This document shows, piece after piece, positions 5,377 to 10,266 of a stretch of 64,000 nucleotides of DNA. Position 1 is the stretch's first letter. Each line of letters begins with the position of its first letter. The notes under the pieces are model-generated. The model did no database searches. It saw only the letters and a list, made by a program, of their open reading frames with translations, and was not told where the DNA came from. The translations under genes were made by a program, and so were the position numbers. Source of the DNA: an uncultured Alphaproteobacteria bacterium (GTDB taxonomy: Bacteria > Pseudomonadota > Alphaproteobacteria > HIMB59); contig CACBZW010000001.1 in NCBI GenBank assembly GCA_902543855.1, forward strand, positions 8,979-72,978, written 5' to 3'.

Positions 5377-5442
5377 ATGGTGCCGCCGAGAAGAATTGAA
5401 CTTCCGACCCCACCCTTACCAAGGGTGTGCTCTACCACTGAG
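5377..5442 (-). repeat. att direct repeat (displaced tRNA-Thr fragment lacking the first 10 nt)
   Basis: Identical to 10191-10256. Confidence 0.95.
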
Positions 5443-5517
5443 TACCCTTGAGTACTAAGTTGTTTCAATGATTCTAGCATCTGTGGAATCATCTTTGCAA
5501 GTACATTGTTAAACAAA

Positions 5518-5537
5518 GTGTACCCATAGTGTACCCA
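5518..5537. repeat. Tandem GTGTACCCA repeats, putative integrase arm-type sites (left)
   Basis: Copies at 5518-5526 and 5529-5537; same motif at 10125-10145. Confidence 0.7.
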
Positions 5538-5847
5538 TTCTCTGATATAGAGCTAACTAGGATAACAGAGTAAACACTATGTGCCGCCCCCCCGCATGTG
5601 CCATGCCACCCCTCTGTACCTTATATACATGTGCTCTTGCTAAAATATTCAAAATAGACTGTAAACCACTTTTAAATAAATAATATTTAGCATCAACTAT
5701 GCGAGTAAATATTTCTATATCTACTGTAAACCTTAACCTTTAGAAAGTGTTGAATAACTTGAATTCTAGAATCTTTGTAAACCTATTTGAAAGTACAATA
5801 GTTAGATAAACTTGATACATCTAAATCTAACATATGTTTGAAAGTAG

Positions 5848-7365
5848 TTATTTAATTGCAGGAATAGAAGGGTCTTTATCTAAAGCAATAAAATATTTCT
5901 CAAATTCATCATGCATTATTTGAGTTAATTTAATTTTATATTTCTTGTTAGTAATAAATCCGTCATGTATTGGGAAGGCAGGTATTCTTTTTAATGCTGC
6001 TGATTTTACTACCGCAGTAGCTATATTAGATTCATAAAACATAAACTTTATACCCCAATCTTTAGAAGTTTTAGTATTCTTAAAATACTTTCCCCATAAT
6101 ATTGCATGTACAATCCTTATCTCGGCAATACATTTTTCCATATCATGTAAGAATTTTTTAGGAATAGAACCTACATTTGGGAATTTTTTTCCTAATATTT
6201 CCTGTGCAGTTAGTTTTTTAGCAGTAGTAATATTTTTTACATTAGGTGCGATAGTAATAAATTGTTTTATTATTTCTCTATTTAATCCCTTGAGGGTGGC
6301 TATCTGATATAAATCCTTACCACTATTGCTAGATAAATTTTCAAGAGAGCTCATTATGTGCATATTCATACTGCTATAATCTAGCTCTATTGTTTCCTCT
6401 TGGTTTAGCAACAGTGATCTACGAAGCTCCTTAGGAACACTGAGTATCCAATGGGAATATAATCTACCGCCCTTACCAAAGTTGCCCCTACTAAATATTC
6501 TCTCATAATAATTATTTCTATAATTTGAAACAAAATAACCTTCTGGATAATAAATCTTCTTCTCTAATTTATGCTTTTTAATGTATCTATTGAGGGAGTT
6601 AGGTTTGATATACAGCTCTTGTTTTCCTAAATAATCATTAATAAAAAACATTTCCTGCCGCATATCATTTGTATTTTCATCATTAGAGTAGGGCACTTCT
6701 CTCTCATATCCGCCCTTAAATTGTTTAAGTCTTATGGGATTTCCAACATATGTTAGATTTTCTATTCCTATTTTAAAATACTGAAAATACTCAATCCAAC
6801 TTCTAGAAAATTCATATCTTGCGGTAGCTCCACCTTTCTCTGATGTAGGGCTTCTAGGTTCTCTAGTTAATCTTAATGCTTCAGTTTTTAATAAATAATT
6901 TAATGTGTTCTCTACTGTTTTAGCTGATAGATGCTGATTGTAGATACCTTTTGTATAAACATCTTTTTTCTTTTGTATGGTCATATGACCCCAAAACAGA
7001 AATCTATAATGGTTATATAATACTGCTGCTCCAATAATTTTTATAAAATCTCTATACTTCTTTTTTGTTGAGTCATTTAATTTTACTTCTGTTAAATATT
7101 TTTCTACCCATTTATCTACATTCTTACCCTGTAAGGTAATATCTGTATCTATATAGTGAGCATCATCAAATAAATAATCTACTCCCCACTGCCTCTCTAT
7201 TTGTTTTCTAAAATATTCTCTAGTATATCCTACTGAATCATTAACCATTTCTTCGTGGTAATCTCCTGCTAAATCATCCATTTCAGAAATTGTTATTTCA
7301 TGTCCGTCAGGCAAAGTACCTACAACTTCTACTTTATAATCAATTAAAAATTTTTTATAACGCAT
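5848..7365 (-). CDS. Family A polymerase (Pol I/T7 RNAP superfamily)-like protein with probable N-terminal winged HTH
   Basis: GGRLY (pre-A), ELDYSS (motif A), REIIK (motif B RxxxK), PIHDG (motif C) in canonical order. Confidence 0.6.
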   Translation of the reverse strand: MRYKKFLIDYKVEVVGTLPDGHEITISEMDDLAGDYHEEMVNDSVGYTREYFRKQIERQWGVDYLFDDAHYIDTDITLQGKNVDKWVEKYLTEVKLNDSTKKKYRDFIKIIGAAVLYNHYRFLFWGHMTIQKKKDVYTKGIYNQHLSAKTVENTLNYLLKTEALRLTREPRSPTSEKGGATARYEFSRSWIEYFQYFKIGIENLTYVGNPIRLKQFKGGYEREVPYSNDENTNDMRQEMFFINDYLGKQELYIKPNSLNRYIKKHKLEKKIYYPEGYFVSNYRNNYYERIFSRGNFGKGGRLYSHWILSVPKELRRSLLLNQEETIELDYSSMNMHIMSSLENLSSNSGKDLYQIATLKGLNREIIKQFITIAPNVKNITTAKKLTAQEILGKKFPNVGSIPKKFLHDMEKCIAEIRIVHAILWGKYFKNTKTSKDWGIKFMFYESNIATAVVKSAALKRIPAFPIHDGFITNKKYKIKLTQIMHDEFEKYFIALDKDPSIPAIK

Positions 7366-7439
7366 GAAAGTACATCATACACTATCGGAGAACTTTTGTC
7401 GTTTAATTCCCTCAATCTAAAGACTAATGAATCACAATA

Positions 7440-7448
7440 TGGTATAAT
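7440..7448 (+). promoter_or_regulatory. Extended -10 promoter (TGnTATAAT) for the rightward operon of the element
   Basis: TGGTATAAT ~90 bp upstream of 7537; AGGAG RBS precedes the ATG. Confidence 0.55.
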
Positions 7449-7536
7449 GTAATTAGAAGCTTAAAAAAGTTTCTATTCTTCTCCACTCCAATAATCACGG
7501 AGCCTTGATATAGGTTCCCATTTTATAGGAGAAGAA

Positions 7537-7845
7537 ATGTCAAATAATAATGACAGAAAAAAAGTAGGTGGTACAACCGCTTACTCATATAAGAAAATGC
7601 CCTCCAATAACAAGGGGAGGTCATCTACGATCCAAGAGAACTCTTGGGTAAATTCTGATTGGTCAGATTATGAACATCAGAAACATTTAAATAAACTCGC
7701 TAATGAGAAAATAGATAATCTTTACTATGAAGTAATGGGTAAGATTAATGATACTCAAGCGGAAATAGTAGATAAAATTATTAAAATGCATAAAGAGAGT
7801 AAATCTCAATCTGCATTTGATGATTATTTTGAGGAGGATAAATAA
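7537..7845 (+). CDS. Hypothetical protein (basic N-terminus, acidic C-terminus)
   Basis: AGGAGA RBS; stop overlaps the next start (TAATG). Confidence 0.75.
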   Translation: MSNNNDRKKVGGTTAYSYKKMPSNNKGRSSTIQENSWVNSDWSDYEHQKHLNKLANEKIDNLYYEVMGKINDTQAEIVDKIIKMHKESKSQSAFDDYFEEDK

Positions 7846-8958: not shown

Positions 8959-9086
8959 ATTAGGTGTGATTGATTCAGTTGAATCTAAAAGATTCTGTAA
9001 ACCTCTTAAAACGGGTTTTTTGAATCAAATTTAAGCACTTAAACAGTTTCATCTATTGTTCTTTAGTTTCTCAATAGGTGAATAAA

Positions 9087-9126
9087 CTAGGGGAGTTATG
9101 CTCGGTATCCTACCTCACTCCCCTAG
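9087..9126. terminator. Hairpin between the convergent ssb and int genes
   Basis: CTAGGGGAGT/ACTCCCCTAG 10-bp stem, 20-nt loop. Confidence 0.45.
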
Positions 9127-9135
9127 GATTAATAA

Positions 9136-10110
9136 CTATGATCCGAGGTTAAGCTTAGATGCTATCGTTGAGGCTCTTAGGTTTCCATAAACATTCATTA
9201 AAATATTAATATCTTTATGTCCGCTAATTACTTGCACATCTTGTATTGGCAATCCCTTCTCTAAATATCTGCTAATAGCCTCATGTCTTAAATCATGAAA
9301 GTGTAAATCTTTAATCTCGTACTTTTCTACTAGCCTTCTCCATTTAGATTTTAATCCCTCATAGTGTAAAGGTATGGGAAGTTCCATAGATTTAAGAATA
9401 GTTTTAGCCTTATTTGTTAATGGTATTTCTGAATTAATAGAACCATTTTTCCTTACAGGAATAACTAAAGTATTATCCTTAATATGTTCATCTTTTATTC
9501 CTAGAATCTCACCTCTTCTTAATCCTGTTTCTAATGCTAGATTTATTATATTCCGCATTATTTCTACTGTGTGATTACCTTTAGTTAGTAGGGTTAATTC
9601 TCTATTTGTTAATCTTCTAAAGCGAGGTTCTGGTCTTTTCATTTTCTGTAAATTATTGAAGATACTATCAAGAGGGTAGCCCCATTCAGTTTGAGCTACA
9701 ATCCACATATGTTTTACAACAGTTAAGAACCTTAACCATGTAGAGATTTTTCTTTCTTGAATATATTTATTTCTGAAATCTCCAATATGTTGGGGAGTTA
9801 TTTTATTTATTTTGTATTCTATTTGAGGAAATTCCTTCACAAATTTACTAAGTGAATATGCTTCCCACTTCCTAACAAAATCAGATTTTCTACAAGATAC
9901 TTCAATTAAATATCTATTAATTAAATTCTTTAGAGTAGGGTAGTTAGTATCTGTTTTGTAAGTTCCCTTTTGTATTTCCAATTCTTTCTCACTAATGAAC
10001 CTTTTAGCAAGTGCTTTGCTTGGAAATGTTTTCTTAATTGGCTTCAATTTAAATTCACCAATACGAACTATTGCTCTGAACTTCTTCCCTCTTTTTGTTA
10101 TTGTTCCCAT
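9136..10110 (-). CDS. int: Tyrosine recombinase/phage integrase (324 aa; true start 10110)
   Basis: GLRRGE, RKNG, HDLRH, SGH, VY catalytic set; AGGAGG RBS at 10117-10122; the ORF-track extension overlaps the tRNA. Confidence 0.93.
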   Translation of the reverse strand: MGTITKRGKKFRAIVRIGEFKLKPIKKTFPSKALAKRFISEKELEIQKGTYKTDTNYPTLKNLINRYLIEVSCRKSDFVRKWEAYSLSKFVKEFPQIEYKINKITPQHIGDFRNKYIQERKISTWLRFLTVVKHMWIVAQTEWGYPLDSIFNNLQKMKRPEPRFRRLTNRELTLLTKGNHTVEIMRNIINLALETGLRRGEILGIKDEHIKDNTLVIPVRKNGSINSEIPLTNKAKTILKSMELPIPLHYEGLKSKWRRLVEKYEIKDLHFHDLRHEAISRYLEKGLPIQDVQVISGHKDINILMNVYGNLRASTIASKLNLGS

Positions 10111-10124
10111 GTTGTACCTCCTTT

Positions 10125-10145
10125 GTGTACCCAAAAGTGTACCCA
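10125..10145. repeat. Tandem GTGTACCCA repeats, putative arm-type sites (right)
   Basis: Copies at 10125-10133 and 10137-10145, just upstream of the int RBS. Confidence 0.7.
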
Positions 10146-10191
10146 AGGGGCTACTGTGAGAAGAGCTTTGGTAAATTAACCTTGATAAATA

Positions 10192-10266
10192 TGGTGCCGC
10201 CGAGAAGAATTGAACTTCCGACCCCACCCTTACCAAGGGTGTGCTCTACCACTGAGCTACGGCGGC
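10192..10266 (-). tRNA. tRNA-Thr(GGT)
   Basis: GCCGCCGTAGCTCAGTGGTAGAGC...CTTGGTAA...GTTCAATTC...GGCGGCACCA cloverleaf with encoded CCA. Confidence 0.97.

What the first reader, a model, noticed from the sequence alone, without database searches (positions are those of the whole stretch)
5377..10256. Minimal 4.8 kb tRNA-Thr element: integrase, PolA/T7-RNAP-like protein, gp2.5-like SSB and GIY-YIG-like protein, a candidate new satellite of T7-like phages
Seen: 66-bp att repeats, an intact integrase, matching arm repeats and only four other ORFs. There is no recognisable capsid, terminase, AlpA, primase-helicase or conjugation gene. Established: PICI/PLE/P4/PICMI satellites are small integrase-bearing elements that exploit helper phages, and T7-like podoviruses infect marine alphaproteobacteria. 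Inference: the gp2.5-like SSB points to a T7-like helper. The element may excise as a 4814-bp circle, replicate with its own polymerase-like protein plus helper functions, and be packaged as concatemers. This gene set fits none of the satellite classes I know.
Basis: partly seen in the sequence, partly recalled or inferred. Interest (0 to 1): 0.92.

Follow-up and report, generated by a model that had tools for sequence, protein, structure and literature searches.

The report
Minimal integrating mini-replicon of marine bacteria
A 4.8-kb mobile element sits in a tRNA-Thr gene of a SAR11-type marine bacterium, carries only an integrase, a small polymerase, a DNA-binding protein and two small genes, and is also found as a free circle in ocean metagenomes, so it is a live, very small self-mobilising element, but nothing shows that it is a satellite of T7-like phages.

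Summary
Exact 66-bp repeats (5377-5442, 10191-10256) made from the 3' end of tRNA-Thr(GGT) bracket five genes under purifying selection: a tyrosine integrase, a T7 gp2.5-type SSB, a 505-aa polymerase and two small ORFs.

The excised form exists. Two independent metagenome assemblies contain an identical 4777-bp circular contig. It is colinear end to end with the att-to-att unit at 90% identity and carries one att copy. In another run, a contig joins 10190 back to 5377.

The 505-aa protein folds as a family-A / T7-RNAP-type polymerase (Z 12-14). It has every feature that defines the TV-Pol family of mobile-element polymerases, which are predicted primase-polymerases. It is paired with the gp2.5-like SSB in relatives down to 35% identity. 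I therefore read the two as the element's own replication module, not a trace of a T7-like helper.

ORF164 has a weak GIY-YIG-like fold.

I found no packaging gene, no similarity to known phages (pelagiphages are not among the hits) and no helper. Satellite status remains untested.

The element fits known marine classes in concept: VEIMEs and tycheposon-like elements. Polymerase-SSB primase pairs are known from Bacillota. I rate it a new variant of known kinds. The scan had noted parts of this same stretch before, but not on other DNA.

The parts
5377..5442 (-). attL: displaced copy of the 3' 65 nt of tRNA-Thr(GGT) plus 1 nt
   Evidence: It is 66/66 identical to 10191-10256. It scores as a partial tRNA. 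It is 100% identical to the single att copy of the circular contigs L001 and L002.
5443..5847 (.). 405-bp non-coding block: P' arm plus candidate origin of replication (the origin role is inferred)
   Evidence: It has no ORF. It is 84.5% identical to the circle overall, but its motifs are conserved while the spacers have diverged. The single strand shows no significant structure (z -1.7).
5518..5537 (+). two GTGTACCCA arm-type repeats (P' arm)
   Evidence: All four copies in the window lie in the element, against 0.07 expected. They are conserved in L001.
5579..5620 (.). G+C-rich box with a short GCATG/CATGC inverted repeat
   Evidence: Read from the sequence. It is largely conserved in L001. 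Function unknown.
5660..5846 (+). iteron-like repeats: TGTAAACC x3 (5660, 5725, 5776) and TTTGAAAGTA x2 (5786, 5837)
   Evidence: Four of the seven TGTAAACC copies in the window are in the element, all on one strand, against 1.7 expected. The repeats are conserved in L001 while the sequence between them has diverged.
5848..7365 (-). 505-aa TV-Pol-type polymerase (PolA / T7-RNAP superfamily, no exonuclease domain)
   Evidence: - **Model.** AF2 pLDDT 87.7.
- **Fold matches.** VIA Z 14.2 to mitochondrial RNAP, 14.0 to apicoplast PolA and 12.8 to T7 RNAP. All of the top 21 rows belong to this superfamily. Foldseek agrees.
- **Conserved residues.** R289, G300, R301, R315, D329, Y353, K367, H467 and D468 are invariant in 71 homologues.
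- **Selection.** dN/dS 0.25.
7366..7536 (.). divergent intergenic (promoter) region between the polymerase gene and the ORF102-ORF164-SSB operon
   Evidence: It is 92% identical to L001, more conserved than the polymerase gene. Sigma-70-like hits are not above chance.
7537..7845 (+). ORF102, a small protein of unknown function with a basic N-terminus
   Evidence: It is conserved at this position in L001 (90% aa), L035 (41%) and L034 (26%). dN/dS is 0.16 against L035. No family or fold could be assigned.
7845..8339 (+). ORF164, a protein with a degenerate GIY-YIG-like fold
   Evidence: - **Model.** pLDDT 58.
- **Fold matches.** The top VIA hit is the I-TevI catalytic domain (Z 6.2, rmsd 2.8, 79 aa). 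Seven of the top eight rows are GIY-YIG nucleases.
- **Sequence.** No Pfam hit. R50 is invariant, but the first Tyr is absent (GIA, YIT) and no Glu is among the invariant columns.
- **Relatives.** Homologues in L001, L035 and L038.
8332..8958 (+). T7 gp2.5-type single-stranded-DNA-binding / annealing protein
   Evidence: PF21265 at 56.4 bits against a cutoff of 27. phrog_112, E 4.5e-17. It lies next to the polymerase homologue in L001, L034, L036 and L038. dN/dS 0.14-0.23. It ends ...DTGEYGINK, with no acidic tail.
9087..9126 (.). hairpin between the convergent SSB and integrase genes (candidate bidirectional terminator)
   Evidence: Read from the sequence. The stem is conserved and the loop varies in L001.
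9136..10110 (-). tyrosine integrase, 324 aa, facing inward from the tRNA-proximal end
   Evidence: PF00589, E 7e-20. phrog_1, E 3.7e-44. It is 95.7% identical in L001. dN/dS 0.11. The ATG at 10110 is preceded by AAGGAGG.
10125..10145 (+). two GTGTACCCA arm-type repeats (P arm), abutting the integrase ribosome-binding site
10191..10266 (-). attR inside the intact tRNA-Thr(GGT) gene (tRNA 10192-10266)

Best explanation
This is an intact, currently mobile, minimal integrative and replicative element of a SAR11-type marine alphaproteobacterium.

**Shown**
- It is integrated in the 3' end of tRNA-Thr(GGT) between exact 66-bp att repeats.
- The same unit exists in the sea as a closed circle, or as a head-to-tail multimer, with one att copy.
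- All five genes are kept by purifying selection.
- The large protein has the fold and all conserved residues of a TV-Pol-type family-A polymerase.
- That polymerase is always found beside the gp2.5-type SSB in relatives.

**Inferred**
- The inward-facing tyrosine integrase binds the core and the four GTGTACCCA arm sites, and cuts the element out and pastes it in.
- The circle then replicates from the 405-bp non-coding block (TGTAAACC / TTTGAAAGTA repeats). The TV-Pol acts as primase-polymerase on template coated by its SSB partner, in the manner of the CcPol-MP 'PolA-SSB' primases.
- Host functions, or polymerase-plus-SSB strand displacement, replace the missing helicase.
- The GIY-YIG-like ORF164 may nick or bind the origin.
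- The route between cells is open. Candidates are concatemers in a helper phage's capsid (as for VEIMEs), membrane vesicles, or free DNA.
For: 1. **att repeats, tRNA and arm sites.**
2. **Circular contigs.** L001 (JGI, 107-bp terminal overlap) and L002 (ENA, 77-bp overlap) are the same 4777-bp circle cut at different points. Each holds one 66-bp att copy. Both overlaps are longer than the 66-bp att repeat, so the circle did not arise by collapsing two att copies. The circle aligns 1-4814 to 1-4777 with the window's att-to-att unit at 90% identity.
3. **Junction in a run.** A Logan contig in run X1 joins 10190 back to 5377 ('goes back 4814', depth 83.6).
4. **Spread.** Near-identical sequence occurs in 17 runs of 11 marine studies.
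5. **Selection.** dN/dS is 0.11 for int, 0.14-0.23 for ssb, 0.25 for pol, 0.46 for orf164 and 0.16 for orf102.
6. **Polymerase fold and residues.**
7. **Pol-SSB neighbourhood in relatives.** It is conserved at 63%, 36% and 35% polymerase identity.
8. **Contexts of more distant homologues.** They lie beside a tyrosine integrase and a resolvase (L040), beside an integrase in Paracoccus (L042), and beside a UvrD helicase with a Bro-N/KilAC protein nearby in Vibrio phage HNL01. These are the contexts reported for TV-Pols (PMC2579912).
9. **Precedent for activity.** CcPol, counted among the TV-Pols, has demonstrated primase activity when bound to its small ssDNA-binding partner MP (PMC7581432, PMC10061031).
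Against: - No replication has been measured.
- No helicase, initiator or partition gene is present.
- The family lacks the PolA residues that exclude ribonucleotides. The position of Klenow E710 is H/N/Q, and the position of Y766 (T7 RNAP Y639) is Asn. The product could therefore be RNA, DNA or mixed.
- A circle-type junction would also arise from tandem integrated copies.
- The origin assignment rests only on repeats.
- A profile of the family did not hit the TV-Pol-bearing phage Ma-LMM01. The link to a named TV-Pol therefore rests on features and gene context, not on direct sequence similarity.
Confidence: 0.72

Rival explanations
1. It is a phage satellite. On infection by a helper phage the element excises, replicates into head-to-tail concatemers and is packaged in the helper's capsids. 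The first reader proposed a T7-like podovirus as helper. The element would then be a VEIME-type satellite.
For: - It has a small size, an integrase and no capsid genes.
- The circle or tandem junction is compatible with concatemers.
- VEIMEs are small, mostly integrase-bearing elements without major capsid genes. They were found packaged as concatemers in marine virions, and some were found integrated in Pelagibacter genomes. Some of them carry DNA polymerase genes (PMC9618062).
- Eight or nine 4.8-kb units would make about 38-43 kb, which by my recollection is about the size of podovirus-type pelagiphage genomes.
Against: - No terS, capsid-remodelling, AlpA or helper-sensing gene was recognised.
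- The SSB, the polymerase, the integrase and the element's DNA have no close match in 50,697 phage records, and no pelagiphage is among the hits.
- The gp2.5-like SSB is explained as the polymerase's partner.
- The SSB lacks the acidic C-terminal tail. From prior knowledge, T7 gp2.5 uses that tail to dock on the phage replisome.
- No relatives were found in IMG/VR viral contigs.
- No terminase was found in the 56%-complete host genome.
Confidence: 0.25
2. It is a decayed prophage remnant: a leftover integrase and early-gene block of a T7-like temperate pelagiphage, no longer mobile.
For: From prior knowledge, temperate podoviruses of SAR11 integrate at tRNA genes and carry an integrase at the left end. 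gp2.5-type SSBs are typical of T7-like phages.
Against: - Both att copies are 100% identical.
- The same five-gene unit, with the same ends, occurs as a circle at 90% identity.
- All genes are under purifying selection.
- No larger prophage with these genes was found in 70 genomes of the genus or in phage databases.
Confidence: 0.03
3. The polymerase-SSB pair is cargo with a function other than replication. For example, it could be an anti-phage system that makes aberrant nucleic acid or sequesters ssDNA. The element would then be a defence-carrying integrative island.
For: - A lone paralogue (30% identity) is kept under purifying selection next to tRNA-Cys in 9 related genomes, without integrase or SSB.
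- One homologue lies directly after a type I restriction R subunit.
- Another first-stage note pointed out that a tail-less gp2.5 could inhibit T7-like phages.
Against: - No PADLOC match.
- The family's contexts are integrases, resolvases and helicases, which fits replication.
- A 4.8-kb circle with no other replication gene needs a replicase.
Confidence: 0.07

Closest known systems
TV-Pol family (Iyer, Abhiman and Aravind 2008, PMC2579912)
   Same: The protein is a stand-alone 400-600-aa protein with the minimal PolA / T7-RNAP core. It has a thumb, a beta-hairpin arginine, two palm aspartates, a fingers aspartate and the RxxxK motif, and no nuclease domain. Family members are found on mobile elements next to lambda-type integrases, resolvases, Bro-N/KilAC proteins and helicases. 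They are predicted to act as primase-polymerases.
   Different: Here the conserved partner is a gp2.5-type SSB, not a D5-like helicase or the N-terminal helical domain. I obtained no direct sequence match to a named TV-Pol.
CcPol-MP / 'PolA-SSB' primases of SCCmec and other Bacillota elements (PMC7581432, PMC10061031)
   Same: An exonuclease-poor A-family polymerase is encoded beside an ssDNA-binding protein on an integrative element. In the PolA-SSB primases that partner has a predicted OB fold. That pair is a proven DNA primase.
   Different: Those elements also encode a helicase, use serine recombinases and are known only from Bacillota. CcPol keeps the PolI residues E710 and F762, which this family lacks. 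Their SSB is a small, unrelated OB protein, not the gp2.5 type. Binding of the polymerase to the SSB is not shown here.
VEIMEs, virion-encapsidated integrative mobile elements of marine bacteria (Eppley et al. 2022, PMC9618062)
   Same: These are small elements without major capsid genes, more than 80% of which encode an integrase. About a fifth were found integrated in genomes of marine bacteria including Pelagibacter, and they are propagated as head-to-tail repeats. Some modules carry DNA polymerase genes.
   Different: Encapsidation and concatemers have not been shown for this element. I could not check whether this gene set is among the 2,000 published VEIMEs.
Tycheposons and related 'cryptic elements' (Hackl et al., bioRxiv 10.1101/2020.12.28.424599)
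   Same: A tRNA-targeting tyrosine recombinase faces inward at one end and a small replication module lies at the other. Such elements are enriched outside cells, and related elements are reported in Alphaproteobacteria.
   Different: This element has no cargo at all. Whether its integrase and replication genes belong to the tycheposon hallmark families was not tested. Tycheposon replication modules are described as primases and helicases.
Pipolins (self-replicating integrative elements with a primer-independent PolB)
   Same: The concept matches: a tRNA-integrating element whose hallmark is its own primer-independent polymerase (from prior knowledge and PMC10061031).
   Different: The polymerase belongs to a different family (B rather than A). 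Pipolins are larger and carry cargo.
PICI / P4 / PLE / PICMI phage satellites
   Same: They are small, have an integrase and att sites, and have an excised replicating form.
   Different: No AlpA, primase-helicase, terS, capsid-size or helper-sensing genes were recognised. No helper is known.

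Membership tests
TV-Pol polymerases | Stand-alone globular protein of 400-600 residues with the PolA / T7-RNAP polymerase core (thumb, palm, fingers) | tested here: met
   The protein is 505 aa. The model has pLDDT 87.7. VIA gives Z 14.2, 14.0, 13.0 and 12.8 to mitochondrial RNAP, apicoplast PolA, Aquifex PolI and T7 RNAP. 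All of the top 21 rows belong to this superfamily, and the next unrelated rows have Z about 5. Foldseek gives probability 1.0.
TV-Pol polymerases | Beta-hairpin with an absolutely conserved arginine; two conserved palm aspartates | tested here: met
   R289 and R301 are invariant and lie in strands 288-291 and 299-303. D329 and D468 are invariant in 71 sequences.
TV-Pol polymerases | Fingers module with a conserved aspartate and the RxxxK motif | tested here: met
   D351 is present in 69/71, R363 in 68/71 and K367 in 71/71.
TV-Pol polymerases | No fused or linked nuclease; located on mobile elements with an integrase, resolvase or helicase | tested here: met
   No exonuclease domain was found by Pfam. 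The gene contexts are shown in the window, L040, L042 and L054.
TV-Pol polymerases | Detectable sequence similarity to a named TV-Pol | tested here: inconclusive
   A profile of 71 homologues found nothing in Microcystis phage Ma-LMM01. A tblastn hit of E 1e-14 falls on an integrase-linked ORF in Paracoccus versutus, a genus that is listed in the TV-Pol paper.
PolA-SSB (CcPol-MP type) primases | A-family polymerase domain with intact catalytic residues, encoded beside an OB-fold ssDNA-binding protein | tested here: met
   See for the polymerase. The SSB matches PF21265. The two are adjacent in L001, L034, L036 and L038.
PolA-SSB (CcPol-MP type) primases | The polymerase and the SSB form a physical complex | tested here: inconclusive
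   Complex prediction gave no verdict. Co-purification would be needed.
PolA-SSB (CcPol-MP type) primases | Helicase in the same operon and a serine recombinase on the element | tested here: not met
   None of the five genes is a helicase. The recombinase is a tyrosine integrase.
PolA-SSB (CcPol-MP type) primases | Primer-independent DNA synthesis | not testable with these tools
   This needs biochemistry.
T7 gp2.5-type SSB | Match to the SBB_T7 family above its gathering score | tested here: met
   56.4 bits against a cutoff of 27. phrog_112, E 4.5e-17.
T7 gp2.5-type SSB | Acidic C-terminal tail ending in an aromatic residue (the docking site for the T7 polymerase and helicase) | tested here: not met
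   The protein ends ...KVDTGEYGINK. This end is conserved in close relatives and absent in L038.
GIY-YIG nucleases (ORF164) | GIY-YIG alpha/beta fold | tested here: inconclusive
   The top VIA hit is the I-TevI catalytic domain (Z 6.2, rmsd 2.8, 79 aa). UvrC-N, Slx1, HIGLE and T4 EndoII are among the top 8 rows. However, the model has pLDDT 58, and Foldseek E-values are 0.4 or higher.
GIY-YIG nucleases (ORF164) | Catalytic motif residues (GIY Tyr, YIG, Arg, Glu, Asn) and a Pfam PF01541 match | tested here: not met
   The motifs read GIA and YIT. R50 is invariant, but the first Tyr is absent and no Glu is among the invariant columns of the homologue alignment. There is no Pfam hit at E up to 1.
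Phage satellites (PICI, P4, PLE, PICMI, VEIME) | Integrase and att sites; excised circular or concatemeric form | tested here: met
Phage satellites (PICI, P4, PLE, PICMI, VEIME) | Helper-dependent induction and packaging in helper capsids | not testable with these tools
   No virion-fraction long reads were available. Sample fractions are coded in the run list.
Phage satellites (PICI, P4, PLE, PICMI, VEIME) | Genes that redirect packaging or sense the helper (terS, capsid or size determinants, AlpA, primase-helicase) | tested here: inconclusive
   None was recognised in four libraries. The 102-aa ORF remains unassigned.
Tycheposon-like elements | tRNA-targeting site-specific recombinase facing inward at one end, with a small replication module at the other end | tested here: met
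   The integrase at 10110-9136 reads inward from the tRNA. The polymerase and SSB lie at the far end.
Tycheposon-like elements | Cargo genes; integrase of the tycheposon-specific lineage | tested here: not met
   There is no cargo, only five genes. The integrase lineage was not tested. Its best phage matches are P2-like and Ralstonia phage integrases at about 32% identity.

The most novel reading that the evidence does not exclude
The TV-Pol and its gp2.5-type SSB, perhaps with ORF102 and the GIY-YIG-like ORF164, form a helicase-free, two-to-four-protein replisome. It primes and copies the 4.8-kb circle on its own. To my knowledge that would make this the first natural episomal replicon described for SAR11. 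In the field the circle would be amplified into concatemers that ride in pelagiphage capsids or vesicles. The family's loss of the PolA sugar-discriminating residues would mean a primase-polymerase with relaxed rNTP/dNTP choice.
Probability: 0.3. Interest if true: 0.8.

Novelty: new variant of a known kind. Interest (0 to 1): 0.58.

Why it matters
- **SAR11 genetics.** SAR11 is among the most abundant bacteria in the ocean (PMC12669031). To my knowledge it has no known plasmids and no genetic tools.
- **A possible vector.** This is a 4.8-kb element with a defined attP, an integrase for a conserved tRNA-Thr attB, and its own replication module. It is a natural candidate for an integrative or shuttle vector for SAR11.
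- **An uncharacterised enzyme family.** TV-Pols are widespread. I found 2541 representative clusters (50% identity) at E up to 0.001. Apart from CcPol they have not been characterised biochemically, as the CcPol authors noted in 2020 (PMC7581432). This element offers a minimal system for asking whether an A-family polymerase plus a gp2.5-type SSB can prime and replicate DNA.
- **Gene flow in the sea.** Near-identical copies occur in 17 runs from 11 marine studies, and a free circular form exists. Both bear on how genes move between streamlined marine bacteria.

Tried and rejected
- **Complex prediction.** The polymerase-SSB job gave no verdict (score 0.00, controls not run). I do not count it either way.
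- **Depth of flanks.** In runs X1 and X2 the element body has much more contig depth than its chromosomal flanks: 150-430 against 0, and about 19 against 0-2. The tool warns that uncovered parts and contig depths prove nothing, so I do not count this as evidence of copy number.
- **Empty site.** No contig joined across the empty site. The one 'skips 3465' joint has a 25-nt side and is probably spurious.
- **Viral contigs.** IMG/VR scans with the polymerase and the integrase found no relatives.
- **Named TV-Pol.** The profile search of phage Ma-LMM01 found nothing.
- **Genome contigs.** The scan returned only the nine tRNA-Cys paralogue loci I already had. The first attempt failed because the alignment had no conserved stretch.
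- **Protein Atlas.** Searches for ORF102 and ORF164 gave nothing usable.
- **Solved structures by sequence.** The profile found nothing real.
- **Promoters and RNA.** The sigma-70 scan was below chance, and Rfam found only the tRNA.
- **Non-coding block.** Its single-strand fold is not significant (z -1.7).
- **VEIME supplements.** The files are not held, so I could not check whether this gene set is already listed.
- **Terminase.** None was found in the 56%-complete host genome. This does not show absence.
- **Other papers.** The vesicle and virus-like-particle paper mentions recurrent ~4.6-kb Pelagibacter reads in vesicles (PMC11876622). I could not link them to this element.

Full report
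**1. The observation**

The window has about 30% G+C. It comes from a 691-kb, 56%-complete assembly. Its same-genus relatives are 0.7-1.4-Mb assemblies (about 1.3-1.4 Mb when near complete). Those whose records I could see are titled as uncultured marine Alphaproteobacteria single-cell genomes. I therefore call the host SAR11-type.

- A perfect 66-bp direct repeat lies at 5377-5442 and 10191-10256.
- The right copy is the 3' part of an intact tRNA-Thr(GGT) at 10192-10266, minus strand.
- The left copy scores as a partial tRNA.

Five ORFs lie between the repeats:

| Coordinates | Strand | Size | Identity |
|---|---|---|---|
| 5848-7365 | - | 505 aa | polymerase-like |
| 7537-7845 | + | 102 aa | unknown |
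| 7845-8339 | + | 164 aa | unknown |
| 8332-8958 | + | 208 aa | PF21265 SBB_T7 and phrog_112 gp2.5-like SSB |
| 9136-10110 | - | 324 aa | tyrosine integrase |

GTGTACCCA occurs four times in 64 kb, all inside the element, two copies near each end, against 0.07 expected. No capsid, terminase, AlpA, primase-helicase, conjugation or defence family was found. The description is correct.

**2. The element is alive, not a remnant**

The polymerase-like protein has only eight close relatives among 5.8 billion clustered proteins, all on short metagenome contigs. Two of these contigs are decisive.

- L001 (JGI, 4884 bp) has a 107-bp terminal overlap, and L002 (ENA, 4854 bp) has a 77-bp terminal overlap.
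- Once the overlaps are removed, they are the same 4777-bp circle cut at different points.
- Each carries the same five genes and exactly one copy of the 66-bp att sequence.
- Both overlaps are longer than 66 bp, so the circle was not produced by collapsing the two att copies of an integrated element.
- The circle aligns from its att to its end with the window's att-to-att unit (1-4814 against 1-4777) at 90% identity.

Near-identical sequence is held by 17 public marine runs from 11 studies. In one of them a contig joins 10190 back to 5377, which is the attP-type junction of this very variant.

Between the window and the circle or more distant relatives, every gene is under purifying selection. 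dN/dS is 0.11 for int, 0.14-0.23 for ssb, 0.25 for pol, 0.46 for orf164 and 0.16 for orf102. A decayed prophage remnant is therefore very unlikely. A circle-type junction could in principle come from tandem integrated copies. That is the one caveat.

**3. The large protein**

No Pfam or NCBIfam model matches it. An exhaustive HMMER search finds a large uncharacterised family: 2541 representative clusters at E up to 0.001.

A model built on 71 homologues is confident, with pLDDT 87.7. Against 48,161 solved chains, the 21 best rows are all family-A DNA polymerases or T7-like single-subunit RNA polymerases:

| Structure | Z |
|---|---|
| yeast mitochondrial RNAP | 14.2 |
| apicoplast PolA | 14.0 |
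| Aquifex PolI | 13.0 |
| T7 RNAP | 12.8 |
| unrelated folds (next rows) | about 5 |

Foldseek agrees.

The invariant residues are R289, G300, R301, R315, D329, Y353, K367, H467 and D468. D351, R363 and N375 are nearly invariant. These give:

- motif A: ELDYS;
- motif B: RxxxK, followed by Asn where PolI has Tyr766 and T7 RNAP has Tyr639;
- motif C: IHD(S/G)F.

The position of the PolI steric-gate Glu710 is His, Asn or Gln, and never Glu.

These features are the ones that define the TV-Pol family of Iyer, Abhiman and Aravind (PMC2579912). That paper describes 400-600-aa stand-alone proteins on transposons and viruses with a thumb, a beta-hairpin arginine, two palm aspartates, a fingers aspartate and RxxxK, and no nuclease. 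It predicts them to be primase-polymerases.

The contexts it reports also recur among this protein's distant homologues:

- a DUF6538-type tyrosine integrase and a resolvase (L040);
- an integrase directly upstream in Paracoccus versutus;
- a UvrD-like helicase next door and a Bro-N/KilAC protein nearby in Vibrio phage HNL01.

A direct profile hit to the TV-Pol-bearing phage Ma-LMM01 was not obtained. Membership therefore rests on features and context.

**4. The SSB belongs to the polymerase, not to a helper**

The gp2.5-type SSB lies in the divergent operon next to the polymerase gene in relatives whose polymerase is 63% (L034), 36% (L036) and 35% (L038) identical. ORF102 and ORF164 come and go.

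This parallels the CcPol-MP primase of SCCmec. There an A-family polymerase that lacks a complete exonuclease domain gains primer-independent synthesis from a small ssDNA-binding partner (PMC7581432). The wider 'PolA-SSB primase' class has so far been reported only in Bacillota, together with a helicase and serine recombinases (PMC10061031).

The SSB here lacks the acidic C-terminal tail of T7 gp2.5. Neither the SSB, the polymerase, the integrase nor the element's DNA has a close relative among 50,697 phage records. No pelagiphage appears among the hits.

**5. The small ORFs and the non-coding DNA**

*ORF164.* Its model is weak (pLDDT 58). Even so, seven of its eight best structural matches are GIY-YIG nucleases, led by the I-TevI catalytic domain (Z 6.2, rmsd 2.8, 79 aa). 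The motif is degenerate (GIA, YIT; R50 kept; no conserved Glu), and Pfam is silent. The fold is plausible and the activity is uncertain. The larger relative L038 carries an ORF164 homologue and also a separate, true GIY-YIG gene.

*ORF102.* It remains unassigned.

*Non-coding block 5443-5847.* It holds the two P'-arm repeats, a G+C-rich box, three TGTAAACC repeats and two TTTGAAAGTA repeats. These motifs are conserved in the circle while the spacers have diverged. That pattern is expected for protein-binding iterons. I propose the origin lies here, by inference only.

*Hairpin 9087-9126.* It separates the convergent SSB and integrase genes.

**6. How it most likely works**

- *Shown:* integration at the tRNA-Thr 3' end; a free circular or head-to-tail form with the same ends; selection on all genes; a polymerase fold with intact catalytic residues; a conserved polymerase-SSB pairing.
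- *Inferred:* the integrase, with its four arm sites, excises and integrates the element. The TV-Pol, loaded on ssDNA by its SSB, primes and extends DNA at the repeat block. Host helicase, or strand displacement aided by the SSB, does the unwinding. ORF164 may nick or mark the origin, which would favour rolling-circle products.
- *Open:* the route between cells. The candidates are concatemers in a helper's capsid as for VEIMEs (PMC9618062), vesicles as proposed for tycheposons (10.1101/2020.12.28.424599; PMC11876622), or free DNA.

I put about 0.72 on the integrative-replicon reading, about 0.25 on true helper-dependent satellite status and about 0.1 on a T7-like helper.

**7. Comparison and novelty**

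- The architecture is that of tycheposon-like elements: an inward-facing tRNA-proximal integrase and a small replication module at the far end. This element has no cargo.
- As a small, capsid-less, integrase-bearing element integrated in a SAR11-type (Pelagibacter-like) genome, it fits the VEIME concept, but encapsidation is untested.
- The polymerase fits TV-Pol.
- The polymerase-SSB pairing extends the PolA-SSB idea to Alphaproteobacteria, to a gp2.5-type partner and to a helicase-free setting.

I rate it a new variant of known kinds, not a new category.

**8. Site context**

The tRNA-Thr site is a hot spot.

- The closest relative, G008, shares the left flank at 99% identity. It has a 53-nt degenerate att copy, an ~870-bp insert without an integrase that carries GTGTATCAA repeats, and then the tRNA.
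- Several other genomes carry two or three att fragments upstream of the tRNA.

Noticed in passing
L025-L033 (for example L028:7926-9416, with tRNA-Cys at L028:9425-9498): Nine of 70 genomes of the same genus carry a 496-aa paralogue of the polymerase at 30% identity. Its 3' end lies 8 nt from the 3' end of tRNA-Cys(GCA). It sits among ordinary genes (creatininase, PTPS, GST) with no integrase or SSB. Pairwise dN/dS is 0.10-0.20, so a lone TV-Pol is being maintained in the chromosome.
   Followed up: partly
L005:2578-3569 (G008, same left flank at 99%): At the same tRNA-Thr site a close relative has a degenerate 53-nt att copy and an ~870-bp insert without an integrase. The insert carries one small ORF and TTTGTGTATCAA repeats that resemble this element's GTGTACCCA arm sites. 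It may be a miniature, non-autonomous passenger of the same or a related integrase.
   Followed up: partly
G002:C10, G003:C1, G007:C6, G013:C4, G024:C5: Several relatives have two to four partial tRNA-Thr (att-like) fragments spaced 1-4 kb apart upstream of the tRNA. These are tandem remnants that mark the site as an integration hot spot.
   Followed up: no
L038:1-10592: A 10.6-kb low-GC metagenome contig carries the same divergent module (polymerase 35%, ORF164-like, SSB 39%). It also has a true GIY-YIG gene, a MORN-repeat protein and coiled-coil proteins, with no recognisable tailed-phage genes. It may be a larger unknown element or virus built on the same replication module.
   Followed up: partly
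L003:1-3203: A 43%-identical polymerase homologue starts 3 nt after the end of a type I restriction R-subunit gene (EcoEI_R_C, ResIII). This is a different context that hints at defence islands.
   Followed up: no
window 7537-7845: ORF102 is the most conserved stretch between the window and the circle, at 95.5% nucleotide identity against 88% for the polymerase gene. In that comparison dN/dS is about 1.3 and dS only 0.04. This could mean a cis-acting DNA or RNA signal lies within it. Against a more distant relative dN/dS is 0.16.
   Followed up: partly
L054:3252-8408 (Vibrio phage HNL01): Large Vibrio, Aeromonas and Shewanella phages encode unannotated homologues of the polymerase's C-terminal half. 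In HNL01 the gene is followed by a UvrD-like helicase and lies near a Bro-N/KilAC protein.
   Followed up: partly
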